In this document: in pieces, positions 6,274 to 39,300 of the stretch | Position numbering within the stretch: position 1 is the first letter of the stretch | How the letters are laid out: the number at the start of each line of letters is the position of its first letter | From: an uncultured Methanosarcinales archaeon | Lineage (GTDB): Archaea; Nanobdellota; Nanobdellia; Woesearchaeales; JABIAG01 | NCBI GenBank assembly: GCA_964427985.1 | Contig: CAYRWJ010000002.1 | Coordinates: forward strand, 1-43,797 | Length of the DNA stretch: 43,797 nt | Direction of reading: 5' to 3' | Translations under genes and position numbers: made by a program | The notes under the pieces: model-generated | What the model was told of the DNA's origin: nothing | Seen by the model: the letters and a program-made list of their open reading frames with translations, nothing else | Database searches by the model: none

Positions 6274-6903
6274 ATGATTATAGAATGGTTAGGTCATGCC
6301 AGTATAAAAATCAAAACAAAAAATAAAATAATATACATAGACCCTTATTCTGGAGATTATACTGACGCAGAAAAAGCTGACTTAATACTAATAACTCATT
6401 CTCATTATGACCATTTTTCAAAAGAAAAAATAAAAAAAATAATTGTGGATGATACAATAATTATTGCACCACCTTCAGTTGGCGCAGAAATAGAAACCGA
6501 AATAATGAAAAACGGAGATAAAAAAGAAATAAAAGGATTAAAAATAGAAGCAGTAGCAGCTTATAATGTAACTAAATCCTATCATCCAAAGGGAGAAGGA
6601 AATGGTTATGTATTTGAAATAGAAGGTAAAAAAGTATATTATTCTGGAGATACAGATTTGATTCCTGAAATGAATTTAATTGAAGCAGATATAGTCTTGT
6701 TGCCAGTTGGAGGAACTTACACAATGGATGCAGAAGAGGCAGCATCTGCCGCAAATATAATCGGACCTGAAATAGCAATTCCAATACACTGGGGTGAAAT
6801 AGTAGGACATGAAGAAGATGCTGAACAATTTAAAGAAGAAGTAGAAAGTGAAACTGAAGTAAAAGTAAAAATTATTAAACCTGGCGAGAGTATAGAAATT
6901 TAG
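6274..6903 (+). CDS. metallo-beta-lactamase-fold hydrolase (UPF0173-like)
   Basis: 209 aa. LGHASIKI, IYIDPY, HxHxDH zinc motif THSHYDH, then GGTYTMD and IPIHWG. Confidence 0.85.
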   Translation: MIIEWLGHASIKIKTKNKIIYIDPYSGDYTDAEKADLILITHSHYDHFSKEKIKKIIVDDTIIIAPPSVGAEIETEIMKNGDKKEIKGLKIEAVAAYNVTKSYHPKGEGNGYVFEIEGKKVYYSGDTDLIPEMNLIEADIVLLPVGGTYTMDAEEAASAANIIGPEIAIPIHWGEIVGHEEDAEQFKEEVESETEVKVKIIKPGESIEI

Positions 6904-25226: not shown

Positions 25227-25287
25227 TAACTGTTCAGTAGGACAAACTACTTATTTTCCTTGAGTGAGTCTTGGAAACTATAAAGTC

Positions 25288-25314
25288 GGTCTCTCGCAAA
25301 GATTTGCGAGAACC
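25288..25314. promoter_or_regulatory. GC-rich perfect palindrome/hairpin just upstream of the nrdR start
   Basis: TCTCGCAA agat TTGCGAGA (25292-25311), flanked by gg/cc. It lies between a TATA-like aaactataaag (25275-25285) and the ATG at 25325. Confidence 0.45.
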
Positions 25315-25324
25315 ATTCATAATC

Positions 25325-25771
25325 ATGCGCTGCCCATATTGTTTAGATGAAAATACAAAAGTTGTAGATAAAAGAGATAGTGAAAACTTTACGCGAAGAA
25401 GAAGAGAATGTCTAAAATGTAAAAAAAGATTTACAACACACGAACGTGTTGAGAGTGTAGGTATGATTGTAGTAAAAAAAACTGGGGAAAGAGAACGTTA
25501 TGATCGAGACAAAATAAAAAGGGGATTAATACGTGCATGTGAAAAAAGAAAAATAACTTTGGAACAAATTGAAAACACTTTAGACAAAATAGAAACTGAA
25601 TTAAGAAAATCGAATTCAACTGAAATATCATCTTCCAAAGTAGGTAATGTAGTAATCAAATATTTAAAAAGATTAGATAAAGTTGCATATATTAGATTTG
25701 CATCAGTTTACAAAGATTTCAAAGATGTAGAAGAGTTTCAAGAAGAACTAAAGACATTGTTAAAGAGGTGA
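25325..25771 (+). CDS. nrdR: transcriptional repressor NrdR (zinc ribbon + ATP-cone)
   Basis: MRCPYCLDENTKVVDKRDS...RRRRECLKCKKRFTTHE is the NrdR zinc ribbon, followed by an ATP-cone (VVKKTGERERYDRDKIKRGL). The track's TTG start at 25271 was rejected. Confidence 0.9.
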   Translation: MRCPYCLDENTKVVDKRDSENFTRRRRECLKCKKRFTTHERVESVGMIVVKKTGERERYDRDKIKRGLIRACEKRKITLEQIENTLDKIETELRKSNSTEISSSKVGNVVIKYLKRLDKVAYIRFASVYKDFKDVEEFQEELKTLLKR

Positions 25772-25780
25772 GATAGAAAA

Positions 25781-28700
25781 ATGGTACCTGCTCCAATAAC
25801 GGTAATAAAAAGAAAAGCTTATGGTGAAACTAAAGCAAGATCTGAAGAATATGATCCGGATAAGATTATAGTTGCAATGCAATGTGCATTTCAAGAACTA
25901 GATAAAACTCCTTCTGAATCACAATTAAAAACAATGCTTCCTAAAATAGAAGAAAAACTTAAACCAACAAAGAAGGGGGGAGTTCATAGAAATGCTATAG
26001 ACCGGGCGGTTGTTTTAACATTAAAAGATTCTATGCATCCTGATGTTGCAGAGGCTTATGAAACTTATGGAAAAGATAGATTAAAAGAATTAAGAAGAAT
26101 AAGACTTAAAACTGCTGCAGGAAATGTAAATACAACAGATGCATTATTGCTAATTGAGAGTTCAACAACAGGAACTGCAAATCCTTTTGATAAACATGCT
26201 GTTTCTGATTATTTGGAAAGATTAGAAGTGGATCTTTCTCCTCATTTAATTAAAAGTGTAGCAAGCGCAGTAGAAACGTCTGTTCTTACTTGGGTTAAAG
26301 AAGTTAAAAAAGATGATGAAGTATTGGAATTAACAACATCAGATATTCATACTCTTGTTGGAGCTGAATTAATAAAAAAAGGAATAGATCCACAACAATT
26401 ATTTGCTTCAAGAAATTTTGTAGTTTCAAGAGAAAATTTAGAAATGTTGATGGCTTCAAAATCAAATGAAAATGGAAATGTAAATTCAAACAATCCTGAA
26501 GCAGTTAATTTAGAAATAGCAGAATGGGTATTAAAAAGATGGGCATTAAGTTCTATATTTGATAAATCTGTACGAACTGCACATGATGCAGGAGCGATGC
26601 ACGTACATGATTTGGGTTACCCACATAGAGTTTATTGTTCAGGACATTCATTAGAATATATAAAAAAATATGGGTTAAGAGATTTACTAAATTTATCTAC
26701 TCGTTCATCTCCCGCAAGACATGCAATAACTTTAGTGGGACATACAGCAACATTTTTAGCATCAATGCAAGCATATTATGCAGGTGCGTTAGGAATGGCA
26801 TATGTAAATTTATCATTTGCTCCTTTTTTAGAAAGTATGTCAAGAAAAAATGTAAAAAAAATTAAACAAGATGTATTAAGTTATTTATCTGGCGATGAAG
26901 CATTACAAACTAGATTATCTAAGTATCTTGTCGCTTCAGAAAATTGGAAAAGAGTATCGACAGAACTTGCAAATAGGCCAGTATCTGATTCAGATTTAGA
27001 AGGAATAATCGGTTCAGTTTCAACAAAATTAGAAGGAAAACCAGAATTGGATCAATTTATGAGGTTAGTTAATGATTATAGAGATATGCGAAAACAAGCA
27101 AAACAATTAAATGATATGTTAACTGATTCAGACCTTGTTGGAAGTTTAATGGAAGATGTTTCTGCAAGATTAGAAGGAAACGAATCTTTATCGCAAGAAT
27201 TTCAAAAGTTAATGATTCAATACACTGACATGAAACAAATAGCACAAAACTTTATTTTTACATTATCGCAATGTGCATTTTCAAGAGGAAGTCAAACAAT
27301 ATTTACCGATGCAAATTTACATACTGGAGTTCCTGATGCATTAAAAAAAGTACCCATTGTTGTTCCAGGGGGACGATATAGGCTTTTAAATGAAGAAACA
27401 GGTGAAACAGAAGATTTACGAGCAAGGAAAGATTCAACAAGTAAAGATGGAATAATTTTTACAGATTCTGAAGGCAATGTGTTTTTAGATGGGGAAGGAA
27501 ATTTTAATTATGATTTAGCTAAAGAACAAGGAAGAAGATTTGTGACGTATGGAGATTATGAAGAAACTTCACAAGATTTTTTAGATGCATTACTTGATGT
27601 TTACAAAGAAGGAGACGAAATTGGGATGATGTTTCCATTTCCAAAATGCGATGTTCACATAGATCCTAATACGTTTAAACAAGAAAGGCAAAAACAATTG
27701 TTAAGAAAAACCTGCGAAGTTGCAGCTCATAATTCAAGTGCTTATTTTATTTTTGATAGAGATGCAGTAACTCTTGCAGCTTGTTGTAGATTAAGAACTG
27801 CTGTAGATCCAAGAGCATTAGAACATCCTGAATCATTAAGATTTTGTGGTTTTCAAAATGTAACAATAAATATCCCGCAAGCAGCTTATAGAGCAGCAGA
27901 AGCTGAAAATTTAACTCTTGATGGAGTTATAACTGAAGTGCTTGAAACAATGGATCTTGCATTAGAAGCCCATGTTCAAAAAAGAAAAAAGACTGAAGAA
28001 TTAATGCAACCTGGCGCGCCATTACATCAAATTGGAAAACCGGGCATGGATGGAAAACCTTATGTCGATTTAGATACTGCAACGTATATAGTTGGAATGA
28101 TTGGAGTTAATGATGCAGTAAACTTATTGACTGGTTCAGAATTACATGAAAGTGAAGAAGCAATGCAAGCAGGATTAGAAATTATTGCAGCAATGTATCA
28201 AAGAGCAAAAGAAATGAGCGAAAAAACGGGTTGGAAAATTTCATTAGAAGAAAGTCCGGCAGAAAGTGCAGCAAGAAACTTAGCATTAAGAGATTTAAAA
28301 CATCCTGTTTATGGAAAATATGCAGAAAAAATAGTTCAAGGAACTAAAGACGATCCGTATTACACCAATTCAGTTCATTTTAGAGCAGATGCACCAATAG
28401 ATGCAATAGAACGAATTCAAGGACAATCAAATTTTCATTCTGTAATAGAATCGGGAGCAATAATCCATCTATTTACTGGAGAAGCAAATATTGATCCGGA
28501 TGCATTATATGATTTGGTTCAAAATATTTATGCAAATACTCAATGTGCACAACTAACAGTTTCAGGAACACATTCTTTTTGCCCTGGTTGTGGAACGCAA
28601 ACAAGAGGAGAACATCATTCGTGTCCAAATTGTGGTTCTGAAACTGATGTGATGTCCAAAGTAGTTGGTTATAATTCCAAAGTTACAAATTGGAATGGAT

Positions 28701-29227
28701 CTAAAGTTGAAGAATCAAAAGCAAGAGCAAGAGGAAATTACGCATTAGATACATCTGAGAATATGGCAGAACTGGATGATTTGAGTCAAACATTAATACC
28801 TGAAGGCGAACCAACAATACGCGCTGTAGTTTATGGAATAAAACATCATCATCATTGTGAATGGTGTGAAGATCTTCATGAGTCTGTAACTAACTTAGTT
28901 GGGAAAAATTATGATGGACAAATAGCTGTTGATTTTGTTGATGTTACTGCACCCGGTGTTGAAGGAAGAAAAAATTTAGCAAGAGCTATGCGTGCAGGAA
29001 TAAACATGGGAACTACTCCTGCAGTGGGATTCGAATATAATGTTGAGGGCATACCTCAACCAGTAGATGAAACAAGACCTTTACAAACTGAAAGTGTTGT
29101 AAGACAAAATAGACAAACTGGACAGTTAGATGTAAAATATAAATTCTTACATAAAATGGGTGCACCAAAAGTAAAAAAAGCAATGGCTGCAGTTTTAGCT
29201 GAAGCAGAAATTTATTTAGGAAAATGA
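25781..29227 (+). CDS. nrdD: anaerobic (class III) ribonucleoside-triphosphate reductase, unusually long, with extra domains
   Basis: 1148 aa, SD gaggtga upstream. N-terminal ATP-cone (VIKRKAYGETKARSEEYDPDKI) and a second cone-like segment. Active-site LAACCRL. C-terminal Zn ribbon CPGCG...CPNCG and glycyl-radical motif KVVGY (Gly codon 28667-28669). Also about 135 extra residues at aa 353-487 and about 175 residues after the glycyl-radical site. Confidence 0.9.
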   Translation: MVPAPITVIKRKAYGETKARSEEYDPDKIIVAMQCAFQELDKTPSESQLKTMLPKIEEKLKPTKKGGVHRNAIDRAVVLTLKDSMHPDVAEAYETYGKDRLKELRRIRLKTAAGNVNTTDALLLIESSTTGTANPFDKHAVSDYLERLEVDLSPHLIKSVASAVETSVLTWVKEVKKDDEVLELTTSDIHTLVGAELIKKGIDPQQLFASRNFVVSRENLEMLMASKSNENGNVNSNNPEAVNLEIAEWVLKRWALSSIFDKSVRTAHDAGAMHVHDLGYPHRVYCSGHSLEYIKKYGLRDLLNLSTRSSPARHAITLVGHTATFLASMQAYYAGALGMAYVNLSFAPFLESMSRKNVKKIKQDVLSYLSGDEALQTRLSKYLVASENWKRVSTELANRPVSDSDLEGIIGSVSTKLEGKPELDQFMRLVNDYRDMRKQAKQLNDMLTDSDLVGSLMEDVSARLEGNESLSQEFQKLMIQYTDMKQIAQNFIFTLSQCAFSRGSQTIFTDANLHTGVPDALKKVPIVVPGGRYRLLNEETGETEDLRARKDSTSKDGIIFTDSEGNVFLDGEGNFNYDLAKEQGRRFVTYGDYEETSQDFLDALLDVYKEGDEIGMMFPFPKCDVHIDPNTFKQERQKQLLRKTCEVAAHNSSAYFIFDRDAVTLAACCRLRTAVDPRALEHPESLRFCGFQNVTINIPQAAYRAAEAENLTLDGVITEVLETMDLALEAHVQKRKKTEELMQPGAPLHQIGKPGMDGKPYVDLDTATYIVGMIGVNDAVNLLTGSELHESEEAMQAGLEIIAAMYQRAKEMSEKTGWKISLEESPAESAARNLALRDLKHPVYGKYAEKIVQGTKDDPYYTNSVHFRADAPIDAIERIQGQSNFHSVIESGAIIHLFTGEANIDPDALYDLVQNIYANTQCAQLTVSGTHSFCPGCGTQTRGEHHSCPNCGSETDVMSKVVGYNSKVTNWNGSKVEESKARARGNYALDTSENMAELDDLSQTLIPEGEPTIRAVVYGIKHHHHCEWCEDLHESVTNLVGKNYDGQIAVDFVDVTAPGVEGRKNLARAMRAGINMGTTPAVGFEYNVEGIPQPVDETRPLQTESVVRQNRQTGQLDVKYKFLHKMGAPKVKKAMAAVLAEAEIYLGK

Positions 29228-29934
29228 AATTTGGAAATATATCTTCATCAGTAGATTTAGTAAGTTTTAATAATGCAGAACAGCCAACAACAGTTTTATT
29301 TTATCAAGGTTGTAATTTTAGATGCGGTTATTGCCATAATGGAGGTATCTGGAAATCAGAAACTGAACCTCTTAATGAAGTCGGATTAAAAAGAGTTCTT
29401 TCCATGGCAAAAAGAAGATGGATAAAAACTATTACATTAACTGGTGGAGAACCAACCGAGCAACCAGAAGGATTACAAAATTTAGTTAGACATTTAAAAA
29501 ATCAAGGATTTAAAATTAAATTAGATACAAATGGAAGTAATCCTGAATTATTAGCAGAACTTGTCGATAATAACTTATTAGATTATGTTGCCATGGATGT
29601 AAAAGGAACTTTAGAACAATATCCAGAAATAGTTGGTTTTTCAGATGTTGAAAAAATAAGAGCTTCAATTGGAATTGTGAGAGAGATGGGTGCTTATGAA
29701 TTTAGAACAACCGTAGTTCCAAAATATCATGAAGAACCAGAAATAAGGGAAATTGGAGCTTTGTTGCACGGATCAAGAAGATATGCAATGCAACAATTTA
29801 GACCTGATTTAGATGGGGGCTGTCTAAATCCTGAGTTTTGTAAACTTGATTCATACCAAGGAGATACTTTGAGAGAATTTGCAGAATTAGTAGAAGATGA
29901 TTTTGAACAAGTAATTGTAAGAGCAAGAGATTAA
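29224..29934 (+). CDS. nrdG: anaerobic ribonucleotide reductase activating protein (radical SAM)
   Basis: 236 aa. CNFRCGYCHN cluster motif and GGEPT SAM motif. ATGA overlap with nrdD. Confidence 0.88.
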   Translation: MKFGNISSSVDLVSFNNAEQPTTVLFYQGCNFRCGYCHNGGIWKSETEPLNEVGLKRVLSMAKRRWIKTITLTGGEPTEQPEGLQNLVRHLKNQGFKIKLDTNGSNPELLAELVDNNLLDYVAMDVKGTLEQYPEIVGFSDVEKIRASIGIVREMGAYEFRTTVVPKYHEEPEIREIGALLHGSRRYAMQQFRPDLDGGCLNPEFCKLDSYQGDTLREFAELVEDDFEQVIVRARD

Positions 29935-30674: not shown

Positions 30675-32330
30675 ATGGATTTTGAAAAAGAAATAAAGAA
30701 ATCTTTGAAAAAAGAAACAGGAAATGATAACTTAGAAATACCTCCTTCTCCAGATTTGGGAGATTATGCTTTCCCTTGTTTTATTTTAGCAAGTAAATAC
30801 AAAAAAACTCCTTCAGAAATAGCTACTGAATTAGCAAACAAACTAGAAATAAAAGGGGTAGAAATAAACGCAACAGGACCTTATTTAAACTTTTTTGTAG
30901 ATAAATCTACAATAGCTAAAGATGTTTTAGTTAAAGCATTTAAGCAAGAAGATTATGGAAGCGAAACAAAAAAAGAAAAAACAATAGTAATTGATTATTC
31001 TGCACCAAATGTAGCAAAACACATGGGCATACATAATTTACGTTCAACAGTAATTGGACAAGCATTATCAAGTACTTACAAATATTTAGGTTATAAAGTT
31101 CAGGGAGTGAATCACTTGGGAGATTGGGGAACCAATTTTGGACAATTAATTACTGGAATAAAAAAATACAGTTCTTTAAGTAAAATAAAAAATGTACAAG
31201 ATCTAAATAAAATTTATGTAAAATTTCATCATGAAATGGAAAAACATCCAGAACTAGAACAAAAAGCAAGAGATGAATTTTCCAAATTAGAAACTGGAAA
31301 TATTGAAGCAAAAAAATATTGGAAAAAGTTTGTTGCAGTATCACTAAAAGATTATGATAAACTTTATACTCGATTAGGAATAAAATTTGAATCAACTAAA
31401 GGAGAATCTGAATACATTCCATTAATTGGAAATACCTTAAAAATTCTAAAAAAACACAGATTAACAAAAGAAAGTGATGGAGCGTTAGTTGTAGAAATGG
31501 GAAAAGATATGCCTCCCTGTTTATTGAAAAAAAGCGATGGTTCAACATTATATGGACTAAGAGATGTAACTGCGGGCTTATTTAGACTAAAACATTACAA
31601 ACCAAAAAAAGTTCTTTACGTAGTAGATATAGCACAATCACTACATTTTCAACAATGTTTCAAAGTACTGGAAAAAATCAACAAAAAAAATAAAGAAATA
31701 TTTGAACACATAATATTTGGGAGACTAAGTTTTAAAGATGGAACAATGTCTACAAGAAAAGGTAAAGTTGTAATATTAGAAGACGTACTAAATAAAGCAG
31801 TAGAAAAAGTATTAAACATAATCAAAGAAAAAAACCCCAAATTAAAAAACAAAAAAGATGTCGCAGAAAAAGTTGGAGTTGGAGCAGTAGTATTCAATGA
31901 CTTGTTCAATGATAGAATCCACAACATAATATTTGATTGGAATAAAGTGTTGGATTTTGAAGGTTCAACAGGACCTTACATACAATATGCATACGCAAGA
32001 TGTTCAGCAATACTTAAAAAATATAATAAAAAGGTAGATGAAAAAGTTGAATTTGAATTATTAAATGAAGATTCTGAATTTGCATTGTTAAAATTATTAC
32101 AAGAATTTCCCGAAGTATTGAATAATGTAATAAAAGATAATAAGCCATCACATTTAGCAAAGTATTCAATTAAATTAGCACAAACATTTAATAATTTTTA
32201 TGGCATTTGTCATGTTGTAACTGAAGATGAAGAATTAACAAAAGTAAGAATACTGTTAGTTTATTGTGTAAGAAAAGTTCTAAAAAAAGGATTAACTTTA
32301 TTAGGAATAGAAGCGCCTTTAGAAATGTGA
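30675..32330 (+). CDS. argS: arginyl-tRNA synthetase
   Basis: 551 aa. Class I HIGH-type motif APNVAKHMGIHNLRS, MSTRKGK in the KMSKS position, and a DALR-type C-terminal domain. TATA tttataaa (30646-30653) lies 22 nt upstream. Confidence 0.93.
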   Translation: MDFEKEIKKSLKKETGNDNLEIPPSPDLGDYAFPCFILASKYKKTPSEIATELANKLEIKGVEINATGPYLNFFVDKSTIAKDVLVKAFKQEDYGSETKKEKTIVIDYSAPNVAKHMGIHNLRSTVIGQALSSTYKYLGYKVQGVNHLGDWGTNFGQLITGIKKYSSLSKIKNVQDLNKIYVKFHHEMEKHPELEQKARDEFSKLETGNIEAKKYWKKFVAVSLKDYDKLYTRLGIKFESTKGESEYIPLIGNTLKILKKHRLTKESDGALVVEMGKDMPPCLLKKSDGSTLYGLRDVTAGLFRLKHYKPKKVLYVVDIAQSLHFQQCFKVLEKINKKNKEIFEHIIFGRLSFKDGTMSTRKGKVVILEDVLNKAVEKVLNIIKEKNPKLKNKKDVAEKVGVGAVVFNDLFNDRIHNIIFDWNKVLDFEGSTGPYIQYAYARCSAILKKYNKKVDEKVEFELLNEDSEFALLKLLQEFPEVLNNVIKDNKPSHLAKYSIKLAQTFNNFYGICHVVTEDEELTKVRILLVYCVRKVLKKGLTLLGIEAPLEM

Positions 32331-33118
32331 TAATCAAAATACCATTTTATGCGGGGGGGTTAGGTAAAACAAAAGGAGTAGAAAAAGCTCCGGATAAAAT
32401 TATTACAAAATTGCGAGAGTTAAATTGTAATGAAGATGGCATTAAGTCTCCAATAAATGAAATGGAAATTAAAGTTAATAATTCTAATATTGAAGAAAGT
32501 CAAAAAGTTATTGAAACAGAAATGAAAAAGATATTTCAAGATTATTCTTGTCCAATTATTCTTGGGGGGGACCATTCAATAACTTATTCAACATTTAAAG
32601 CATTTAATCAAGGAAATTGCGGATTATTAATATTTGATGCACATCCCGACTTAATGCAAGAATTTAATCCCGCAACACATGAAAATTATTTACGAAACTT
32701 AATTGCAGAAGGACTCAATCCTTCAAACATTATTTTGTTAGGAACAAGAAATCAGGATATAGAAGAAATAAATTTTATTAAAAAAAATAATATTAAAAAT
32801 TTCACAATGAAAAAAATAAGTTATCAAGGAATACAAGAAGTGTGTAGCACAATAATGGAAACTTGTAATAAGTTTGATAAATTATATATTTCAATAGATA
32901 TTGATTCAGTAGACCCTGTATTTGCTCCTGGAACAGGGCATCCAGAAATAGGGGGATTAACCTCAAGAGAATTACTATATGTTGTACATCGATTGAAAAA
33001 TTTGAAAAATATTAAAGCAATAGACTTAGTTGAATTAAATCCAGATATAGAAGAAAAGTTAACAATTAGTTTAGGAGCAAAGATTGTTAATGAATTATTT
33101 GGTTCTTCTCCTCAATAA
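32327..33118 (+). CDS. arginase/agmatinase-family ureohydrolase
   Basis: Mn-binding motifs GGDHSITY, DAHPDL and SIDIDSVDPVFAPGTGHPEIGGL. The proposed GTG start at 32327 overlaps the argS stop (ATGTGA). The track's TTG at 32264 would overlap argS by 67 nt. Confidence 0.8.
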   Translation: MIIKIPFYAGGLGKTKGVEKAPDKIITKLRELNCNEDGIKSPINEMEIKVNNSNIEESQKVIETEMKKIFQDYSCPIILGGDHSITYSTFKAFNQGNCGLLIFDAHPDLMQEFNPATHENYLRNLIAEGLNPSNIILLGTRNQDIEEINFIKKNNIKNFTMKKISYQGIQEVCSTIMETCNKFDKLYISIDIDSVDPVFAPGTGHPEIGGLTSRELLYVVHRLKNLKNIKAIDLVELNPDIEEKLTISLGAKIVNELFGSSPQ

Positions 33119-33160
33119 TAACCTAACTCTTTAAATAATCAAAACTCTCCCGTTTTAAGA

Positions 33161-34819
33161 ATGTGCCCTTATACTCCGCCATCTTCAAAAACTTCTGAAC
33201 CTGCAGGTAGTTCTCCCCCTTCTCGTGTTGAACAGATTTATGAAACAATTCTAAAAAGAGATAAAGATTTACCAATATGGTTAGCTACTCCAAATCAGAT
33301 TAGTTTTGATTCAGAAGGACAAATGACAATAATTCTTTCTGGTGAAATGATGCAAGATTCTTTTAGAAGGAATTATGGGAATGTTTTAGAAAAGTTAGCA
33401 AAAGAAACAGGACCATTTACTAAAATAAATTGGGTTGTTGATAGAGCAGAATATGAAAAAATAGTTCCAAAAGAAGAAATTGGAGATTCACCACTCTCTA
33501 TTCCCCGAAGAACTATAAGTGCAGCACAATATTATGCAACTGCAGAAACCGAAGCAGCATTAGCAAAATTACCCATAAAGGATGCAATAGGAAGCGGAGA
33601 TTATGTTAGAGGGAACTGTAATGCAGTGTCTTTTGCAAAAGGATTTGGAATGTTAGATAGATTAAAAGCAAAAAAAACTCCGCAAAGATCTTTATTGGTT
33701 TATGGAGGCAATAATTTAGGAAAAACTACTTTGCTTAAATATTTAGCTACTGAAGCAATCGCCGCGGGATTGATTCCCTTCTTTTTAGATATTAATTTTT
33801 TAGCAAACCAATATCAAACAATGGCAAGAAGAAAGGACGGAGCAACTCCTGAGGATTGGAAAAACGTAGATTTTAGTCATGTACAACACGCAGATTTAGT
33901 TTTATTAGATGGATTAGAAGGCTTGATGACAAGAGGAAATCCAAAAACTCGATTAGGAACACAAAGAAAAGCATTGGAATTAATGGATTCTGCTTTGAAT
34001 AGAGGAAAAGGGTTAATTTTTACTTATTCTGGAACAAAAGAGGGCTGGACTAAACTAGTTATGGCTTTAGCAAAAATGGGCCAGGAAGAACCTGATGAAC
34101 ATTATAAACATTTAGCAGCAAGATTAACAAGAGCAAGTCGAACACAACTTGTTTACCCTTCAGGCGAGGGAAGAATTGAATTTGTAAAAGATGCAATACT
34201 TTCGCTTTCAGAAAGATGTAATGATCAATTAGATCCGGTAGCAAGACATATAAGTGGATTGTTAGGTAGAAATGCAGATCCTGGAAGAATTATGGTTGAA
34301 GTTGAAGAATTAGCAGATTATGCAGACATGCAAGATAAAGAAATAACTCTTGGTTTAACAAGAACAGTATTGGGAACAGAATCATTTTTAATAGAAACAC
34401 CGGGACAATTAAAAGATGAATTACAAACAAACGTAACAAAAATAGCATTAGACCTTTTGAATATAAAAAAACCTTATGTCGCTCAAAAAGGAAGAGAACC
34501 AGATAGAGTTGATAAGAGAGGGTTATTAATTGCAGCAAGAAGAATTTATACCGATATGACTCCTGAAGAAATTGTTGCAGACCTTCCAATATCTTCACAA
34601 ATGGTTCGTCATGCACTTATCAAAGTTGAAGAATTAACAGATAAAACATATTTAAATGATTTTTTAACCCAAATAGAAAAAGTATTATTAGCTTCAGGGC
34701 AAAAAGTAGAAAAAAGAAGTTTGCGGCTTAATAGGCAAGTAAGAAAACCACAAAGTAAGATAGAAGATAAACAACCAATGTTTGATTTAAAAGGAAGTGT
34801 TGCAGATATAAGAACTTAA
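33161..34819 (+). CDS. divergent DnaA-like protein (domain I-like N-terminus, AAA+ module, domain IV-like HTH)
   Basis: 552 aa. TATA tttaaata (33129-33136) lies 25 nt upstream. YVRGNCNAVSFAKG, Walker A LLVYGGNNLGKTTLL (codons from 33701), Walker B-like DLVLLDGLEG, and C-terminal LLIAARRIYTDMTPEEIVADLPISSQMVRHALIKVEEL. See findings. Confidence 0.6.
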   Translation: MCPYTPPSSKTSEPAGSSPPSRVEQIYETILKRDKDLPIWLATPNQISFDSEGQMTIILSGEMMQDSFRRNYGNVLEKLAKETGPFTKINWVVDRAEYEKIVPKEEIGDSPLSIPRRTISAAQYYATAETEAALAKLPIKDAIGSGDYVRGNCNAVSFAKGFGMLDRLKAKKTPQRSLLVYGGNNLGKTTLLKYLATEAIAAGLIPFFLDINFLANQYQTMARRKDGATPEDWKNVDFSHVQHADLVLLDGLEGLMTRGNPKTRLGTQRKALELMDSALNRGKGLIFTYSGTKEGWTKLVMALAKMGQEEPDEHYKHLAARLTRASRTQLVYPSGEGRIEFVKDAILSLSERCNDQLDPVARHISGLLGRNADPGRIMVEVEELADYADMQDKEITLGLTRTVLGTESFLIETPGQLKDELQTNVTKIALDLLNIKKPYVAQKGREPDRVDKRGLLIAARRIYTDMTPEEIVADLPISSQMVRHALIKVEELTDKTYLNDFLTQIEKVLLASGQKVEKRSLRLNRQVRKPQSKIEDKQPMFDLKGSVADIRT

Positions 34820-34826
34820 ATATATT

Positions 34827-34934
34827 CTTCATTTCATTTCGTTCTGGGCATAAAGTTTTTGCTAGAAAACTTTATACTGCATCACTTCATTTCATTTCGT
34901 TCTGGGCATAAAGTTTTTGCTAGAAAACTTTATA
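34827..34934 (+). repeat. perfect 50-bp tandem duplication (period 58) containing the rps17e BRE/TATA and a 10-bp inverted repeat
   Basis: cttcatttcatttcgttctgggcataaagtttttgctagaaaactttata occurs at 34827-34876 and again at 34885-34934, separated by ctgcatca. Each copy holds ataaagtttt tgctag aaaactttat. The distal copy's TATA is about 25 nt from the rps17e ATG. Confidence 0.95.
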
Positions 34935-34958
34935 AAAGGAATAGTGCTACTTTATGGT

Positions 34959-35147
34959 ATGGGACGAATTAAAACACAACTAATAAAGAGAGCATCACAT
35001 AAGTTGATAGAAACACATCCGACAAGGTTTAAAAAAACTTTTGAAGAAAACAAACCCCTGGTAGAAGACTCCGCAGATATAAAAAGTAAGAAATTACGAA
35101 ATGTTATAACTGGGTATGTTACAAGATTAGTAAAAACAAGGAGGTAA
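34959..35147 (+). CDS. rps17e: 30S ribosomal protein S17e
   Basis: MGRIKTQLIKRASHKLIETHPTRFKKTFEENKPLVE...LRNVITGYVTRLVK. ATG at 34959 (the track start at 34917 is a TTG inside the repeat). Confidence 0.9.
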   Translation: MGRIKTQLIKRASHKLIETHPTRFKKTFEENKPLVEDSADIKSKKLRNVITGYVTRLVKTRR

Positions 35148-35149
35148 AA

Positions 35150-35434
35150 ATGTCTGATGACAACTCAATATTTATTGGGAACCGACCGTTTATGAACTAT
35201 GTTACGGGAGTAGTAATGCAATTTACCACAAAGGGCGCAGAAGAAGTGATAGTAAAAGCAAGAGGTAAGTTTATTGCAAGAGCAGTAGATGTATCGGAAG
35301 TTTCTGCAAAAAGATTTCTAGAAGGAAGTGTAAAAGTAAAAGATATTAAAATTGACAGTGAAGAATTTGAAAATAAAGAAGGAAAACAAGTAAGAGTTTC
35401 CACAATAGAAATCGCATTAGAAAAAACCAAATAA
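35150..35434 (+). CDS. albA: DNA/RNA-binding protein Alba
   Basis: 94 aa. NSIFIGNRPFMNYVTGVVMQF...VIVKARGKFIARAVDVSEV. SD ggaggt lies 5 nt upstream. Confidence 0.9.
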   Translation: MSDDNSIFIGNRPFMNYVTGVVMQFTTKGAEEVIVKARGKFIARAVDVSEVSAKRFLEGSVKVKDIKIDSEEFENKEGKQVRVSTIEIALEKTK

Positions 35435-35438
35435 AAAA

Positions 35439-35467
35439 TTTCTTTTTCTTTTTTTTAACTTTTTTTA
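35439..35467 (+). terminator. T-rich tract after albA
   Basis: tttctttttcttttttttaactttttt follows the stop codon. Confidence 0.45.
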
Positions 35468-35509
35468 CAACGATAAATTTATAAAGGTTTTAACTCAAGG
35501 ATTTAATTG

Positions 35510-36391
35510 ATGAAAAAAAGAAAACTTCCTGTCTGGGTAATAATAATTCTTGTTTTAATTGTACTTTCAGTTATTGGATATATGATGCCTGAACATAGTG
35601 GAAATGTGGCTTTAATAAAAGTAGAAGGAGTAATTACGACGCAGGGCGCAAATTCATTATTTACAAAAAGTCAATCATCTTCAAGTATAGTGAAAAAAAT
35701 ACAAATTGCAGAAGAAGATAAACGAATAAAAGCAATAATTTTAGAAATTAATTCTCCTGGCGGAAGCCCAGTTGGAAGTAAAGAAATAGTGGATGCAGTA
35801 TTAAAAACTGAAAAACCAGTAATAGCATATGTTAGAGATGTTGGTGCATCAGGAGGGTATTGGGTTGCATCAGCAGCAGATGTTCTTTTATCATCAGAAT
35901 TATCTTTAGTAGGAAGTATAGGAGTAAATGGAGCATACTTAGAATTTTCAGGATTTTTAAATGAATACAATATAAGTTACATACCTTTAACATCTGGAAA
36001 ATATAAAGATATTAAAAGTCCATTTAAAGAATTAAGTACTGATGATGAAACCAGATTAAGAGAAAAGTTAGATTTAATGCATGAATATTTTTTAGAATCT
36101 GTAAAGAAAAATAGGGGTTTAACAGATGAACAAATACTTGAAGTTAAAGAAGCAGATATTTATTTAGGATTACAAGCAAAAAAACTAGGATTAATAGATG
36201 CTTTTGGCGGAAAAGATGAAGCACTAAAACTTATTGAAGACCAGTTAGATATTGAAACCGAAATAGAACCATTTGAAGACGAAATGGGATTATTAGATTT
36301 GTTCTCAAAAATTATGGCAGAACAAAGTTTTAATATAGGTAAAGGGTTGAGTAATAATTTATTTAAAAATGAAGGTTTAATGTTAAAATAA
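35510..36391 (+). CDS. sppA: signal peptide peptidase SppA (S49 family, short form)
   Basis: N-terminal TM VWVIIILVLIVLSVIGY. EINSPGGSP and the catalytic-Ser context GASGGYWVASAAD. Confidence 0.85.
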   Translation: MKKRKLPVWVIIILVLIVLSVIGYMMPEHSGNVALIKVEGVITTQGANSLFTKSQSSSSIVKKIQIAEEDKRIKAIILEINSPGGSPVGSKEIVDAVLKTEKPVIAYVRDVGASGGYWVASAADVLLSSELSLVGSIGVNGAYLEFSGFLNEYNISYIPLTSGKYKDIKSPFKELSTDDETRLREKLDLMHEYFLESVKKNRGLTDEQILEVKEADIYLGLQAKKLGLIDAFGGKDEALKLIEDQLDIETEIEPFEDEMGLLDLFSKIMAEQSFNIGKGLSNNLFKNEGLMLK

Positions 36392-36392
36392 A

Positions 36393-39300
36393 ATGAAGTG
36401 GGGAGTATTATTAATAGTATTAATTTTCTTAACATCATTAGTTTTAGCATCAGAAAAAAACGAAATAAATACTAAATTTTTTGAAGAATCAAATTTTGTA
36501 ACAAATTCTCAAGAAGTTCAAGGGTATGTGGTAATAAAAGGAAATGTAACTGGGTTAAACGTTGTTGAAAGAATACAAAAAAATATTTATGTAGTTAATA
36601 TAAAAAATACAAAAAATAGGTTGATTGAAGAAACTCAGAATTCAGAGGGTCAAGTAAGGGGTTATGAAGTTCTTGGAAAAATAAAACCTCAAACAAAAAT
36701 AAAACAAGAAATAGAAAACAAAGCAAAAATATTTTTTTATAGTGATGTAAAAGAAAAAGAAAAAGAAGAAATTGCAAAAAAGTATGGAAAAATAATTTCA
36801 AATGATTTGGACGCCATAGAAATAGAATTAATAGGAGATATAAATCATTTAGCATCTGAAGAGACAGTTTATTTCTTAGAATCAGTACCTGTTTTTACTA
36901 CATTTAATAATAATGTGCGGTCATATATGAAAACTTCACAAATCTGGAATATTTTAAATTTGACGGGAGAGGGAATTTCAATAGCAGAATGGGATGAGGG
37001 TTGGGTTGGAAGTCATGTAGATATAGGTGATAAATTAATTATTGGAGACTCTGGACATTCAATAAAGCCACATGCAACTCATGTAGCCGGAATAATGATG
37101 GGAAATGGAACAAGTAATCCACTTTATAAGGGACAAGCACCAAATGTTGCACAATTGATTTCGTGGGAATGGCCAAACTCTGCCATTGAATTAAATAATG
37201 AAACAAATATTTCCGTTTCAACATATTCTGCGGTAGTATCTCAAAATTCTTGGGGATACAATCCCAACGTTAATCCTTATTTTGGTGATTATACTTCTTT
37301 TTCAAGTTATTATGATAGCATAATCTATGGTGATAAATCAGAAACTGATGATAAAATAAGTATTGTGTTTTCTGCTGGAAATTCTGGTAGTCTTGGTTAT
37401 AATAGTACCCTTGGTCCGGGAGGAACAGCAAAAAATGTAATTACTGTTGGGTCAATTGATTATGATGATATGGAAATAAGTTTTTATAGTTCATTAGGAC
37501 CGACAGATGATGGACGAATCAAACCAGATATTGTGGCAATTGGTTGCGGAACTTATGATTCAAATAAGATAACTTCAACATTACCATCTGATTCTTACGG
37601 TGGACTGTGTGGAACATCAATGGCAGCACCAGTAGTATCTGGAATAGTTGCATTAATGCATGAAGCATATAATAAAACAAATGAAGTAGATAGAATTCCT
37701 TCAACAGATAAAGCAATTTTAATTCATACTGCAACAGACCTGGGAAATGTAGGCCCAGATTATACTTATGGTTGGGGATTAGTAGACGCTAAAAAAGCAA
37801 CAAAAACAGCATTAAATGCAAACTCATATATTGTAGAAGGAAATATTTCAACCGGAGAACTATTAAATTACTCATTTAATCTATCTCATACTGCAGAAAA
37901 ATTAAAAGTAACTTTGGTATGGAGTGATCCTCCTGCAACTCCTTTTGCAAATATTGAACTTGCAACAGATTTAGGTATTAACTTAACTTATGCTGATGGA
38001 ACAGGATATTATGGATGGTTGTTAGATAAAGATAACCCCTCTGAGTTAGCAACAAAAGCAACAAATATGGGTGAAGTAGATGGTAGAAACAATGTAGAAC
38101 AAGTAGAAATAAACACTCCTGCATTAGGCGAATATAATATTACTATCCAGGGTTATTATGTAACTGACGGACCTCAAGAATTTTCCTTGATATTTTATCA
38201 AGATATATTTGAAAATGAAACACCGCAAGTGAACTTTACAATATCTTCTCCTTCAGATGGATATGTTACTGGAATATTAATACAAAATATGAGTGTAACA
38301 ACATATGATGATGTATCACAAATAATAAATTGTAGTTTAGAAATAAATGGAACAACAAATTACTCAATGAATGTGGATGCATTTATAACAAATACAACTT
38401 GTCATCTAAATCACACTTTTAAAGTAGGAGAAAACATAACCTATAAAGTATTCGCACAAGATTATAATGAAAATTGGGGAAAAAGCGAACAAAGAGATAT
38501 TAATTTTACACACATTCCAATAATACATAATACACAAATAATTTATATTTTTAATGAATCAAATGTTGTTAATATAACTTTAAACGTAAGCGATGAAGAT
38601 AGTGACACTTTAACTTATGGAATAAACTCTTCCTTGTTTACACAAGATGTAAACTCATTTAATTGGACAACAAATTATGCAGATGCGGGAACATATTCTA
38701 TATTGTTTAACGTAACTGATGGAACTGAGGTAGTAAACCAAACTGTTACTTTAGTAGTTAATGATAAAGTAAGACTAAATGCAAATGCATCAAATATAAC
38801 CTCTTCAGTAGAACTTAATATTTATGTTAATGGGAGTTTAAATGAAACAGAACTTTCTGATGTGAATGCTTTAAATTTAACTGATGCTGCAAATAATACG
38901 TTAGTAACATTTAATTGGAATTTTAGTCAAGAAAATATTAGTTTAGAACTGGATTATGTAGCAGAAAGTGGAACTTTAATAGTAAAAGGACTGAATTTAA
39001 GTTCACAAAATTTTACAAAAACAGTTTATATAAATAAATCAACATCAACATTTAATTATGTGTGTGTTGTGGATGCAGAAGTAGATTTAATATCTTCTCT
39101 TTCTTCAGATTGTTCAAATGCAAATGAAACAAATATTCCTTGCCCAGGTACAACTGGCGCATATACTTGTGCAGTAGAAGGAAATTATTTTAAAGTAGCT
39201 GGATTAAATCATTCAGCACTAAAAGGTCTTACCGTAACCGCAAGTACTCCTAATCTTAATGGTGGAGGGGGTGGTGGCGGTGGTGACGGTGATGATACAG

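What the first reader, a model, noticed from the sequence alone, without database searches (positions are those of the whole stretch)
33161..34819. Full-length but highly divergent bacterial-type DnaA homologue between archaeal housekeeping genes
By eye the 552-aa product is collinear with bacterial DnaA over all four domains. (1) Domain I-like N-terminus: IYETILKRDKDLPIWLATPNQISFDSEGQMTIILSGEMMQDSFRRNYGNVLEKL. (2) A low-complexity linker. (3) An AAA+ module with the DnaA-type pre-Walker motif YVRGNCNAVSFAKG (cf. FV.G..N..A..AA) and Walker A LLVYGGNNLGKTTLL. It continues with Walker B-like ADLVLLDGLEGL followed by TQRKALELMDSALNRGKGLIFTYSG (cf. DDIQF..tQEEFFHTFN.L...gkQIvlTSD), then RLTRASRTQLVYPSGEGRIEFVKD (cf. 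RL.SRF.wGL...i.pP..EtR.aIL). (4) A C-terminal HTH resembling domain IV: DKRGLLIAARRIYTDMTPEEIVADLPISSQMVRHALIKVEEL (cf. R.i..aRQiAMYL...Lt..Sl..IG..FggRDHtTV.hA..KIe.l). Diagnostic residues differ: GKTT instead of GKTH, DG instead of DD in Walker B, and the RDHTTV signature is lost. Archaea are known to initiate replication with Orc1/Cdc6, so a DnaA-fold protein is unexpected here. The flanking genes on the same contig (ureohydrolase, rps17e, albA) are archaeal. The gene has its own leaderless-type promoter. It may be a recruited regulator or loader rather than an initiator.
Basis: partly seen in the sequence, partly recalled or inferred. Interest (0 to 1): 0.8.

Follow-up and report, generated by a model that had tools for sequence, protein, structure and literature searches.

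The report
Divergent DnaA-family gene in an archaeon
An intact, inherited gene in a tiny (DPANN/Woesearchaeota) archaeon encodes a very diverged, full-length relative of DnaA, the protein that starts DNA replication in bacteria; this matters because archaea are thought to lack DnaA and to use Orc1/Cdc6 instead.

Summary
Window 33161-34819 (+) is an intact 552-aa ORF. Alone it misses every curated DnaA threshold. It does belong to a small family (about 16 clusters among 1.84 billion representatives). Every member whose source names an organism, or whose neighbouring genes could be read, is from a Woese-, Pace- or Nanoarchaeota chromosome. A family profile matches full-length bacterial DnaA end to end (B. 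subtilis 8btg, E 5.6e-46). The two-sequence profile of this clade aligns collinearly with DnaA (hhalign 96.8%). The AlphaFold models hit DnaA first for domains III-IV and for domain I.

The gene is not an assembly artefact. A second assembly is identical across both junctions. A 46%-identical orthologue sits in the same gene order on 762-kb and 1.11-Mb Woesearchaeota contigs. Third-position GC equals that of the host genes.

Kept: Walker A, the Walker B aspartate, the box VII arginine finger, and a basic loop plus HTH. Lost: the second Walker B acid, the sensor II arginine, and the DnaA-box-reading D-H-T residues. There is no DnaA-box cluster nearby.

Best reading: a nucleotide-dependent, oligomerising DNA-binding protein with a non-canonical target site. 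Its role (auxiliary initiator or regulator) is untested. I found no prior description, and a 2026 survey reports dnaA absent from this phylum.

The parts
33130..33137 (+). TATA-box-like element TTTAAATA, about 27 nt upstream of the ATG. It is the putative archaeal promoter of a leaderless mRNA.
   Evidence: Read directly from the sequence. The orthologue has CTTTAAAAAA at the same distance, and other family members have TTTAAA/TTATAAA elements at similar spacing. Inferred; there are no transcript data.
33161..34819 (+). Intact ORF of 552 aa (stop codon included): a DnaA-family protein of the archaeal (Nanobdellota) branch.
   Evidence: GC3 is 0.15, like the host genes. It is identical in a second assembly.
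33215..33463 (+). Domain I (aa 19-101), a DnaA_N-like alpha-alpha-beta-beta-alpha-beta fold.
   Evidence: The profile of 10 archaeal domain I slices hits only DnaA domain I in the PDB (4tps_B 9.5e-10, 8btg 5.5e-9, 2e0g 0.007). The model has pLDDT 94.2. The best fold matches are 2jmp, 4tps_B (TM 0.69/0.71, rmsd 2.2 A) and 2wp0.
33464..33586 (+). Domain II-like linker (aa 102-142), predicted disordered. Its C-terminal half is nevertheless conserved with the orthologue.
   Evidence: pLDDT is below 50 for residues 106-142. Identity to P0006 is 46%.
33587..34375 (+). Domain III (aa 143-405): an AAA+ module with extra helices between beta2 and beta3, as in the initiator-specific motif, plus a lid.
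   Evidence: Foldseek gives DnaA domain III 8bv3 TMt 0.77 and 2z4r TMt 0.73. Secondary structure is E206-210, H211-223, H230-235, H239-243, E246-250. Identity to the orthologue is 51-60%.
33704..33727 (+). Walker A / P-loop G182-GNNLGKT189.
   Evidence: G182, G187 and K188 are invariant or nearly invariant across the family and DnaA.
33896..33919 (+). Walker B LVLLDGLE (D250 kept, second acid replaced by G251, E253 two residues further on).
   Evidence: D250 is invariant. The E. coli D236 column is G/S/Y/Q/A/E in the archaeal family.
34121..34123 (+). R321, aligned with the box VII arginine finger (E. coli R285).
   Evidence: The arginine is kept in 9 of 12 archaeal members, but is T in P0009 and P0014 and N in P0017.
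34283..34288 (+). The sensor II position. G375 occupies the column of E. coli R334. The neighbouring R376 is T in the orthologue.
   Evidence: The rest of the family keeps R/K in this column.
34406..34693 (+). Domain IV (aa 416-511): a helical HTH DNA-binding domain. It has basic-loop R445 (column of E. coli R399) and R453 (column of E. coli R407, nearly invariant across the family). H484 aligns with H439. The D433-H434-T435 positions are S478-S479-Q480.
   Evidence: hhalign gives 85% (E 6e-6) against the other archaeal domain IVs, and those match only DnaA domain IV in the PDB. The direct match to DnaA is weak.
34694..34816 (+). Clade-specific basic, disordered C-terminal tail (aa 512-552).
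   Evidence: pLDDT is below 50 for residues 526-545. Only P0006 shares the tail.

Best explanation
The ORF is a genuine, functional, vertically inherited gene of a Woesearchaeota-type (Nanobdellota, DPANN) archaeon. It encodes a member of a previously unnamed, fast-evolving archaeal branch of the DnaA family. It keeps all four DnaA domains.

How I think it works (inferred). It binds ATP through an intact P-loop and the Walker B aspartate. It assembles head to tail through the box VII arginine finger R321, as DnaA does. It binds double-stranded DNA through the C-terminal basic loop and HTH.

Three differences follow from what it has lost. It lacks the second Walker B acid and the sensor II arginine, so it is probably a slow-hydrolysing or non-hydrolysing ATP switch. 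The residues that read the DnaA box (D433/H434/T435 of E. coli) are replaced, and differ again in the orthologue, so its target is not TTATCCACA. No canonical box cluster lies nearby.

My preferred role is an accessory, nucleotide-gated DNA-binding and oligomerising factor acting on the archaeal chromosome. That would be origin-associated control or gene regulation working alongside Orc1/Cdc6, not a canonical DnaA-box/oriC initiator.

Shown here: the gene is real, its homology, its architecture, which motifs are kept or lost, its synteny and its archaeal host. Inferred: ATP binding, oligomerisation, DNA binding and the biological role.
For: Homology:
- Exhaustive phmmer finds 16 relatives and no ordinary bacterial DnaA within E 1e-3.
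- Relatives P0007, P0009 and P0014 pass the Pfam Bac_DnaA_C threshold (60, 65 and 42 bits against 31.5) and keep RDHTTV-like motifs.
- The family profile matches PDB DnaA end to end: 8btg 5.6e-46, 2z4r 7e-34, 1l8q 4e-23. DnaC, DnaI and generic AAA+ proteins score only about 1e-6.
- 12 of 14 members hit TIGR00362, best 2e-30.
- hhalign of P0001+P0006 against three DnaAs gives 96.8% over 410 collinear columns.

Structure:
- The model has pLDDT 78 and its top nine PDB hits are DnaA.
- The domain I model matches DnaA domain I.

Real and resident:
- A second assembly is identical.
- The 46%-identical orthologue lies in the same order, NrdD-NrdG-PTH2-ArgRS-arginase-[gene]-...-S17e-Alba-SppA-subtilase-U32-Dph2, on 762-kb and 1.11-Mb contigs titled Candidatus Woesearchaeota.
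- GC3 is 0.15, equal to the neighbours.
- No integrase or transposase domain turned up among the ORFs scanned in the window or in the gene lists of the related loci.
- There are no relatives in plasmid or phage records and none of this clade in IMG/VR.

Archaeal hosts for other members:
- NCBI titles name Pacearchaeota and Nanoarchaeota.
- Neighbouring genes include Spt5-NGN with L11 and aIF2-gamma.

Motif state. Family-wide invariant or nearly invariant residues are G182, G187, K188, D250, L318 and R453, which are the nucleotide-binding and DNA-binding residues.

Canonical DnaA boxes (TTWTNCACA): 3 in the window against 9.3 expected, and none near the gene.
Against: - No biochemical or expression data exist.
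- The protein alone fails every curated DnaA threshold.
- Its domain IV is recognisable as DnaA-type only through intermediates.
- The full-length AlphaFold alignment contained three canonical DnaAs, which may bias the model towards the DnaA fold. The domain I model did not use them.
- The ssDNA-contact positions V211 and R245 of E. coli DnaA are not conserved at the aligned columns (Q219, G266). A family-specific R-x-G-T-Q motif lies there instead.
- The putative recognition-helix residues differ between the two orthologues, which could also mean relaxed constraint on specific DNA reading.
- I could not check whether this genome has Orc1/Cdc6.
Confidence: 0.6

Rival explanations
1. It is a true chromosomal replication initiator. 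It would bind a cluster of lineage-specific boxes at an origin, melt the DNA and recruit the replicative helicase, either beside or instead of Orc1/Cdc6.
For: - The complete four-domain DnaA architecture is retained, including the protein-interaction domain I.
- The P-loop, arginine finger and extra helices at the initiator-specific-motif position are kept.
- The gene has stayed in a conserved position over deep divergence, with only 46% identity between orthologues.
- Two of 208 complete Nanobdellota genomes in a 2026 preprint lack a strict ORC1 hit (10.64898/2026.05.13.725050, read).
Against: - No repeat cluster or DnaA-box cluster lies next to the gene in the window or in relatives.
- The only nearby repeat is a duplicated rps17e promoter that is single-copy in the orthologue's genome.
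- The catalytic acid and sensor II are lost in this clade, and the arginine finger is lost in other members.
- The family is rare and patchy, with 16 clusters found.
- ORC1/Cdc6 is present in 206 of 208 complete genomes of the phylum.
- No bacterial-type helicase, loader or dnaN lies nearby.
Confidence: 0.17
2. It is purely a transcription factor or nucleoid protein derived from DnaA. It would use the HTH and ATP-dependent oligomerisation to regulate genes and would have no role in replication. A possible target is the nearby nrdR-nrdDG cluster, by analogy with DnaA control of nrd genes in bacteria (the analogy is from general knowledge).
For: - The DnaA-box-reading residues have diverged.
- Hydrolysis motifs are degenerate.
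- In this clade the gene lies four genes downstream of nrdR-nrdD-nrdG.
- Bacterial DnaA is also a transcription factor (PMC8203912, abstract listed).
Against: - Other family members sit in unrelated contexts, next to Spt5-L11 or MsrA/B, so the nrd link is not general.
- Retention of domain I and the whole AAA+ module is more than a simple repressor needs.
- No operator-like repeat was found.
Confidence: 0.15
3. It is the replication-initiator gene of an integrated or former plasmid or virus, now fixed in the chromosome. It would be a relic of a mobile element.
For: - Distribution is patchy, evolution is fast, and genomic contexts differ between subclades.
- One IMG/VR stretch encodes a relative of P0007, although no locus was returned.
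- Archaeal viruses are known to carry 'DnaA-like' AAA+ ATPases (PMC4158269).
Against: - The gene is embedded between arginase-family and rps17e/albA genes in conserved order in two distant genomes.
- No integrase, transposase or viral hallmark gene was found nearby, and PHROGs gives nothing for the neighbours.
- GC3 is host-like.
- There are no hits in plasmid, phage or IMG/VR collections for this clade.
- BFVD gives only generic AAA+ matches.
Confidence: 0.06
4. It is not DnaA-related at all. It would be a generic AAA+/STAND, DnaC/IstB-like, Orc1/Cdc6-like or defence NTPase with a chance resemblance, or else an assembly chimera or bacterial contamination.
For: Single-sequence searches give only weak, mixed P-loop hits: CLP1_P, ATPase_2, AAA, IstB, DS8_antiphage, mad8.
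Against: - The match to DnaA is end to end and collinear, including the non-ATPase domains I and IV.
- DnaA outranks DnaC/DnaI by about 40 orders of magnitude in the family profile search.
- The Orc1 model scores 12.6 bits against a cut-off of 501.
- An independent assembly is identical, and the orthologue lies in the same gene order on Mb-scale archaeal contigs.
Confidence: 0.02

Closest known systems
Bacterial chromosomal replication initiator DnaA (Pfam DnaA_N PF11638 + Bac_DnaA PF00308 + Bac_DnaA_C PF08299; TIGR00362)
   Same: - Same four-domain order and similar length.
- Domain I fold.
- AAA+ module with P-loop, Walker B aspartate, the T-Q motif after Walker B, and the box VII arginine.
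- Extra helices at the initiator-specific-motif position.
- C-terminal basic loop plus HTH, with the columns of R399, R407 and H439 occupied by R445, R453 and H484.

   Different: - The host is archaeal.
- Identity is about 17%.
- It is below all curated thresholds.
- Substitutions: GKTT for GKTH, D-G for D-D, sensor II arginine replaced by glycine, D433/H434/T435 replaced by S/S/Q, V211 and R245 columns not conserved.
- There is an insertion of roughly 9 to 25 residues, depending on the member, before box VII.
- There is a basic C-terminal tail.
- No dnaN neighbour and no DnaA-box cluster.

Other archaeal (Woese-/Pace-/Nanoarchaeota) DnaA-like proteins found here (P0006-P0020), named 'hypothetical protein' in NCBI
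   Same: They share the architecture, the family-specific motifs (R-P-G-T-Q after Walker B, Y-x-G at sensor I, D-L-x-S-R-L at box VII) and archaeal chromosomal contexts.
   Different: - Apart from P0006, which is 46% identical, they are only about 20% identical to the window protein.
- Several keep the canonical RDHTTV/KDHTT signature and the sensor II arginine, which the window protein and P0006 have lost.
- They lack its C-terminal tail.

Hda / DnaC / DnaI / IstB (DnaA-related AAA+ regulators and helicase loaders)
   Same: They belong to the same AAA+ initiator/loader clade, and weak hits are seen (Hda best 2.4e-7; DnaI 6.5e-7; IstB 3e-6 for family members).
   Different: Those proteins lack DnaA domain I and the DnaA_C HTH. 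Their scores are tens of orders of magnitude weaker than those of DnaA.
Archaeal Orc1/Cdc6
   Same: An AAA+ initiator with a C-terminal DNA-binding domain. It is the expected initiator in this phylum.
   Different: There is no significant similarity (NF001625 gives 12.6 bits against 501). Orc1/Cdc6 has a winged helix, not a DnaA_C HTH, and no DnaA_N domain.
Fusellovirus 'DnaA-like' ATPase (SSV1 B251 type, arCOG07960)
   Same: It is the only 'DnaA-like' label I found for archaea in the literature searched (PMC4158269). It is an AAA+ ATPase.
   Different: The source describes it only as a virus-associated AAA+ ATPase. That it lacks DnaA domains I and IV is from my general knowledge. PHROGs gave no such match for the window protein. 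No direct sequence comparison was run.

Membership tests
DnaA (curated models) | Scores above the curated cut-offs of Pfam Bac_DnaA, Bac_DnaA_C and DnaA_N, and of the NCBIfam TIGR00362 equivalog | tested here: not met
   Bac_DnaA scores 13.5 bits against 23. Bac_DnaA_C and DnaA_N give no hit. TIGR00362 scores 24.9 bits against 343.9. Relatives P0007, P0009 and P0014 do pass Bac_DnaA_C.
DnaA (homologous superfamily membership) | Collinear four-domain architecture I-II-III-IV | tested here: met
   hhalign gives 96.8% over 410 columns, Q35-513 to T26-452 of 457. The family profile aligns positions 17-498 with residues 12-445 of B. subtilis DnaA, E 5.6e-46.
DnaA | Domain I fold (KH-like alpha-alpha-beta-beta-alpha-beta) | tested here: met
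   The archaeal-only profile hits only DnaA domain I. The pLDDT-94 model matches 4tps_B with TM 0.69/0.71 and rmsd 2.2 A, and also 2jmp and 2wp0. Foldseek E-values are weak (0.02-0.04) because the domain is small.
DnaA | AAA+ domain of the initiator clade: Walker A, Walker B, helical insertion between beta2 and beta3 | tested here: met
   GKT188-189 and D250 are present. Helices 211-223, 230-235 and 239-243 lie between strands 206-210 and 246-250 in the model. The best fold matches are DnaA domain III, TMt 0.73-0.77. The insertion is seen only in a model.
DnaA | Second acidic residue of Walker B (E. coli D236) and sensor II arginine (R334), both needed for ATP hydrolysis | tested here: not met
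   G251 and G375 occupy these columns. R376 lies next to G375 but is T in the orthologue.
DnaA | Box VII arginine finger (E. coli R285) | tested here: met
   R321 is in that column, as is R325 in P0006. The alignment near the preceding insertion is uncertain.
DnaA | Domain IV HTH homologous to Bac_DnaA_C | tested here: inconclusive
   The direct tests are weak: no PDB DnaA hit and hhalign 21%, E 1e-3, though in the right register. The transitive test is good: 85%, E 6e-6 against the other archaeal domain IVs, which hit only DnaA domain IV (1j1v, 7e-16). The Foldseek alignments to the domain III-IV chains span about as many columns (366-375) as those chains have residues (317-335).
DnaA | DnaA signature residues that read the DnaA box (E. 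coli R399, P423, D433, H434, T435, H439; the residue roles are from my memory of the 1J1V work) | tested here: not met
   R445 and H484 are kept. The P423 column is E469, with P468 adjacent. D433/H434/T435 are S478/S479/Q480, and G/R/A in P0006.
DnaA | Cluster of DnaA boxes (an oriC or autoregulatory site) near the gene; dnaN as neighbour | tested here: not met
   TTWTNCACA occurs 3 times in the window against 9.3 expected, and none lies near the gene. There are no clusters in the related loci. The neighbours are an arginase-family gene and rps17e.
DnaA | Initiates chromosome replication (origin melting, helicase loading) | not testable with these tools
   This needs biochemistry, genetics or marker-frequency analysis.
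Orc1/Cdc6 | Match to Orc1/Cdc6 models; C-terminal winged helix | tested here: not met
   NF001625 gives E 0.039, 12.6 bits against 501. No chain named Orc1 or Cdc6 is among the best 60 PDB matches of the family profile.
DnaC/IstB and Hda | Best match to these models; absence of DnaA domains I and IV | tested here: not met
   IstB_IS21 scores 11.8 bits against 24.1 and Hda 12.1 against 194.8. Domains I and IV are present.
Anti-phage defence NTPases (PADLOC) | Significant match to a defence-system model and a defence-island context | tested here: not met
   Only P-loop-level hits appear (mad8 E 1.2e-3, PtuA 2.9e-3). The neighbours are housekeeping genes.

The most novel reading that the evidence does not exclude
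Some DPANN archaea run a second, DnaA-type initiation system on their chromosome. In it, a DnaA-family initiator with its own non-canonical boxes would cooperate with, or in some lineages replace, Orc1/Cdc6 and hand over to the archaeal MCM helicase. A related reading is that this archaeal branch is ancient rather than a recent bacterial import. That would mean DnaA-type initiators are not a purely bacterial invention.
Probability: 0.12. Interest if true: 0.95.

Novelty: new variant of a known kind. Interest (0 to 1): 0.7.

Why it matters
The split between DnaA in bacteria and Orc1/Cdc6 in archaea and eukaryotes is one of the textbook divides of cell biology, and it is a pillar of arguments about how DNA replication originated. 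This finding is a full-length DnaA-family protein that is chromosomally fixed and inherited within Woese-, Pace- and Nanoarchaeota.

The databases name it 'hypothetical protein'. Threshold-based surveys miss it: a 2026 study of 208 complete genomes of this phylum reports dnaA absent.

It gives a concrete, testable case of a bacterial-type initiator scaffold working in an archaeal replication and chromatin setting. It raises three questions:
- What does domain I, which docks the helicase in bacteria, bind in a cell that uses MCM?
- What DNA site replaced the DnaA box?
- Was the gene acquired once from bacteria, for example from the co-occurring Patescibacteria, or is it older?

Even if it proves to be only a regulator, it would show how an initiator can be re-used after transfer between domains. 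It would also supply a profile that can improve the annotation of DPANN genomes.

Tried and rejected
- Single-sequence Pfam, NCBIfam, PHROGs, PDB and PADLOC searches gave only sub-threshold, mixed P-loop hits and were not decisive.
- The word-indexed homologue search found only the protein itself. With the family profile it returned only three canonical DnaAs, and it missed known members, so I did not use it for distribution.
- The family alignment was too diverse for a locus search. The two-sequence alignment found only the P0006 genome, in GTDB representatives and in JGI metagenomes.
- A canonical DnaA-box scan showed no enrichment or clustering.
- I first considered the 50-nt perfect tandem repeat just downstream as a possible origin or box array. 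I rejected that. It is the rps17e promoter and palindrome, present once and conserved in the orthologue's genome, and it does not fold unusually (z -1.7).
- Mobile-element origin: there are no matches in plasmids, phages or IMG/VR for this clade, BFVD gives only generic AAA+ hits, and PHROGs finds no viral hallmark genes next to P0007 or the other neighbours scanned there. One unexplained IMG/VR stretch related to P0007 came back without a locus.
- Chimera or contamination is rejected.
- A neighbour-joining tree on 450 columns separates four bacterial DnaAs from the archaeal proteins with only 75% bootstrap. The taxon sample is too small to infer origin.
- Literature searches for DnaA with DPANN, Woese-, Pace- or Nanoarchaeota, COG0593 or PF08299 found no description of such a protein.


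Full report
**1. The observation**

The contig has about 30% G+C, and stop codons are frequent in such AT-rich DNA, so an open frame of this length is itself a sign of selection.

The ORF's third-position GC is 0.15, the same as its neighbours (0.10-0.21). Its amino-acid make-up is the most G/A/R/P-rich on the contig. Codon usage is therefore host-like, and the protein is compositionally constrained rather than freshly imported.

**2. The host and the assembly**

The window is a piece of archaeal chromosome. It encodes:
- ribosomal protein S17e, Alba, PTH2, a diphthamide-synthesis protein, aRF1 (three eRF1 domains), aIF1A, SRP54 and TrmB-type regulators;
- GatA/GatB, ThrRS and ArgRS;
- NrdR-NrdD-NrdG.

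It has one tRNA-Lys. No Orc1/Cdc6 domain appeared among the 37 larger ORFs I scanned with Pfam.

An independently assembled ENA contig (ERZ27315536, k141_584575, 4,992 bp) is 100% identical to window 31731-36722. That stretch includes both gene junctions.

A 46%-identical orthologue, P0006, lies in the same gene order: NrdD, NrdG, PTH2, ArgRS, arginase-family, [gene]..., S17e, Alba, SppA, subtilase, U32 peptidase, Dph2. It is found on a 762-kb GenBank contig titled 'Candidatus Woesearchaeota archaeon SI048_bin101' and on a 1.11-Mb JGI contig. Chimeric assembly and contamination are excluded.

**3. Homology to DnaA**

On its own the protein fails all curated thresholds. Pfam Bac_DnaA gives 13.5 bits against 23, among mixed P-loop hits. 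TIGR00362 gives E 9.7e-6 but only 24.9 bits against 343.9. phmmer against the PDB finds nothing meaningful.

An exhaustive phmmer search of 1.84 billion cluster representatives found 16 proteins. They are itself, P0006 (E 8e-138) and a tail of full-length matches at about 20-30% identity, such as P0007 (1e-19) and P0008 (1e-16). No ordinary bacterial DnaA is within E 1e-3.

Three of these relatives pass Pfam's Bac_DnaA_C threshold (60, 65 and 42 bits against 31.5). They still carry RDHTTV- or KDHTT-type signatures, and several give weak DnaA_N and Bac_DnaA hits.

A profile of 14 family members matches full-length DnaA structures end to end:
- B. subtilis 8btg, E 5.6e-46 (profile 17-498 to residues 12-445);
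- T. maritima 2z4r, 7e-34;
- A. aeolicus 1l8q, 4e-23;
- E. coli domain IV 1j1v, 8e-13;
- B. subtilis domain I 4tps, 2e-9.

DnaC, DnaI and generic AAA+ proteins score only about 1e-6. Twelve of 14 members hit TIGR00362, best 2e-30.

A profile of only the window protein and its orthologue aligns with three canonical DnaAs over 410 collinear columns (35-513 to 26-452 of 457; probability 96.8%, E 2e-10).

**4. Structure**

An AlphaFold2 model from a 16-sequence alignment has mean pLDDT 78. It has confident domains at residues 19-101, 143-405 and 416-511, and disordered stretches at 106-142 and 526-545. Its nine best PDB matches are all DnaA: 8btg at 3.8e-14 over domains III+IV, and domain III alone at TMt 0.73-0.77. 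FtsH and p97 follow.

That alignment contained three canonical DnaAs, so I modelled domain I again from archaeal sequences only. The model has pLDDT 94.2. Its best PDB folds are DnaA domain I of M. genitalium, B. subtilis (TM 0.69/0.71, rmsd 2.2 A) and H. pylori. The corresponding sequence profile hits only DnaA domain I.

Domain IV is the weakest link for this particular clade. Its two-sequence profile finds no DnaA in the PDB. It aligns with DnaA in the right register at only 21% probability. It does match the other archaeal members' domain IV (85%, E 6e-6), and those match only DnaA domain IV (1j1v, 7e-16).

**5. Motif state**

Motif state comes from alignment with E. coli DnaA taken from NC_000913.3.

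Kept:
- Walker A: G182, G187, K188, T189.
- The Walker B aspartate, D250.
- Q268 of the T-Q motif.
- R321 in the column of the box VII arginine finger R285.
- R445 and R453 in the columns of R399 and R407 of the domain IV basic loop and helix. R453 is nearly invariant across the family.
- V482, H484 and A485 in the columns of V437, H439 and A440.

Changed:
- H180 to T.
- D236 to G251, with E253 two residues further on.
- Sensor I D269 to S290.
- Sensor II R334 to G375. The neighbouring R376 is T in the orthologue.
- The V211 and R245 columns to Q219 and G266, with a family-specific R-x-G-T-Q motif there instead.
- D433/H434/T435 to S478/S479/Q480, which are G/R/A in the orthologue.

Other subclades keep sensor II, and some keep the signature, but P0009 and P0014 lose the arginine finger. 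Across the family the residues that never or hardly ever vary are those that bind nucleotide (G182, G187, K188, D250) plus L318 and the DNA-binding R453. The residue roles quoted for E. coli are from my general knowledge of the DnaA literature. They were not tested here.

**6. Who has it**

Where a source names the organism, it is always a DPANN archaeon. P0006 is 'hypothetical protein [Candidatus Woesearchaeota archaeon]'; it occurs on 31 contigs, and one automated source calls it 'chromosomal replication initiation ATPase DnaA'. P0009 is from Candidatus Pacearchaeota and P0013 from a Nanoarchaeota archaeon.

Contexts agree with this:
- P0014 lies next to Spt5-NGN and L11 on a 55-kb contig.
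- P0018 lies near aIF2-gamma.
- P0013 and P0017 share their own synteny.

Upstream regions show TATA-like boxes about 25-30 nt from the start codons and no obvious Shine-Dalgarno sequence, as expected for leaderless archaeal genes.

The contexts differ between subclades but are conserved within them. No integrase, transposase or viral hallmark gene was seen. There is no match in PLSDB plasmids, GenBank phages or, for this clade, IMG/VR. BFVD gives only generic AAA+ matches. One IMG/VR stretch related to P0007 was reported without a locus and remains unexplained.

**7. Surroundings**

Canonical DnaA boxes are not enriched (3 against 9.3 expected), and none lies near the gene. The related loci show no clusters either.

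The striking perfect 50-nt tandem duplication just downstream (34827-34876 and 34885-34934) is the rps17e promoter. It carries a 10+10 palindrome, which is present once and conserved in front of rps17e in the orthologue's genome. In that genome two extra genes separate the DnaA-like gene from rps17e. The duplication is a local rearrangement scar or a doubled operator. It is not a box array for this protein.

**8. Interpretation**

Shown:
- The gene is a real, resident archaeal gene.
- It belongs to the DnaA family by homology and has all four domains.
- It forms a distinct, very divergent archaeal branch with about a dozen other clusters. A small neighbour-joining analysis separates the archaeal proteins from four bacterial DnaAs with only 75% support.

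Inferred:
- It binds ATP.
- It oligomerises through the arginine finger.
- It binds DNA through domain IV, at a site other than the DnaA box.
- It hydrolyses ATP poorly.

For the biological role I favour an accessory, nucleotide-gated DNA-binding factor, acting in origin-linked control or gene regulation beside Orc1/Cdc6. My reasons are that the family is rare and patchy, that different subclades have lost different catalytic elements, that no box cluster accompanies the gene, and that ORC1/Cdc6 is reported in 206 of 208 complete genomes of the phylum. A true second initiator is not excluded.

**9. Novelty**

In the literature I could search I found no description of a DnaA homologue in DPANN archaea. 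The most relevant paper states that dnaA is absent from 208 complete Nanobdellota genomes at KofamScan thresholds. This divergent family would fail such thresholds, as it does Pfam's.

'DnaA-like' in archaea has so far referred to fusellovirus AAA+ ATPases. I therefore rate this a new variant of a known kind. It would be surprising to replication specialists, and it is directly testable.

Noticed in passing
window 34827-34876 and 34885-34934: A perfect 50-nt tandem duplication (period 58) lies between the DnaA-like gene and rps17e. Each copy carries the palindrome ATAAAGTTTT-TGCTAG-AAAACTTTAT, which overlaps the rps17e TATA box. The same motif occurs once, and is conserved, upstream of rps17e in the Woesearchaeota orthologous locus (L002 about 14690-14720). 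There, two extra genes (HTH/CarboxypepD_reg, S-layer/CARDB) sit between the DnaA-like gene and rps17e.
   Followed up: partly
window 25271-25771 (with nrdD 25781-29227 and nrdG 29224-29934): A bacterial-type NrdR repressor (Zn-ribbon plus ATP-cone) lies upstream of the anaerobic ribonucleotide reductase genes in this archaeon. It is a second bacterial-style regulator of DNA metabolism, about 8 kb upstream of the DnaA-like gene. The arrangement is conserved in L002.
   Followed up: no
window 6900-7607 (-): An ORF with a YkuD L,D-transpeptidase domain, which is a peptidoglycan cross-linking enzyme family, occurs in a DPANN archaeon. This is unexpected for an organism without murein.
   Followed up: no
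L003/L004 (P0007; JGI 3300005915 and ENA ERZ27315536): A second, only 23%-identical family member that keeps the canonical RDHTTV signature occurs in the same ENA assembly as the window's twin contig. Either two lineages in one community carry the family, or one genome has two paralogues. An IMG/VR scan reported one stretch encoding a relative of P0007 but returned no locus.
   Followed up: partly
L011 11660-13000 and L015 11697-13064: In the P0013/P0017 subclade the DnaA-like gene is followed by a conserved ORF of about 450 aa with no Pfam hit on record in either locus; the L011 copy also has no PHROGs hit. It is a possible functional partner.
   Followed up: partly
window 32264-32330: The mechanical ORF for the arginase-family gene starts at a TTG that overlaps the end of argS by 67 nt. 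The gene call in the twin contig starts at window 32327 (263 aa), which is more plausible.
   Followed up: no
window 34694-34816 (aa 512-552): A basic, disordered C-terminal tail is shared only with the orthologue. It contains a short conserved motif near the end (DLKGSVADI in the window protein, GLSGNVSDV in P0006). This may be a partner-docking peptide. It does not fit a canonical PIP box.
   Followed up: no
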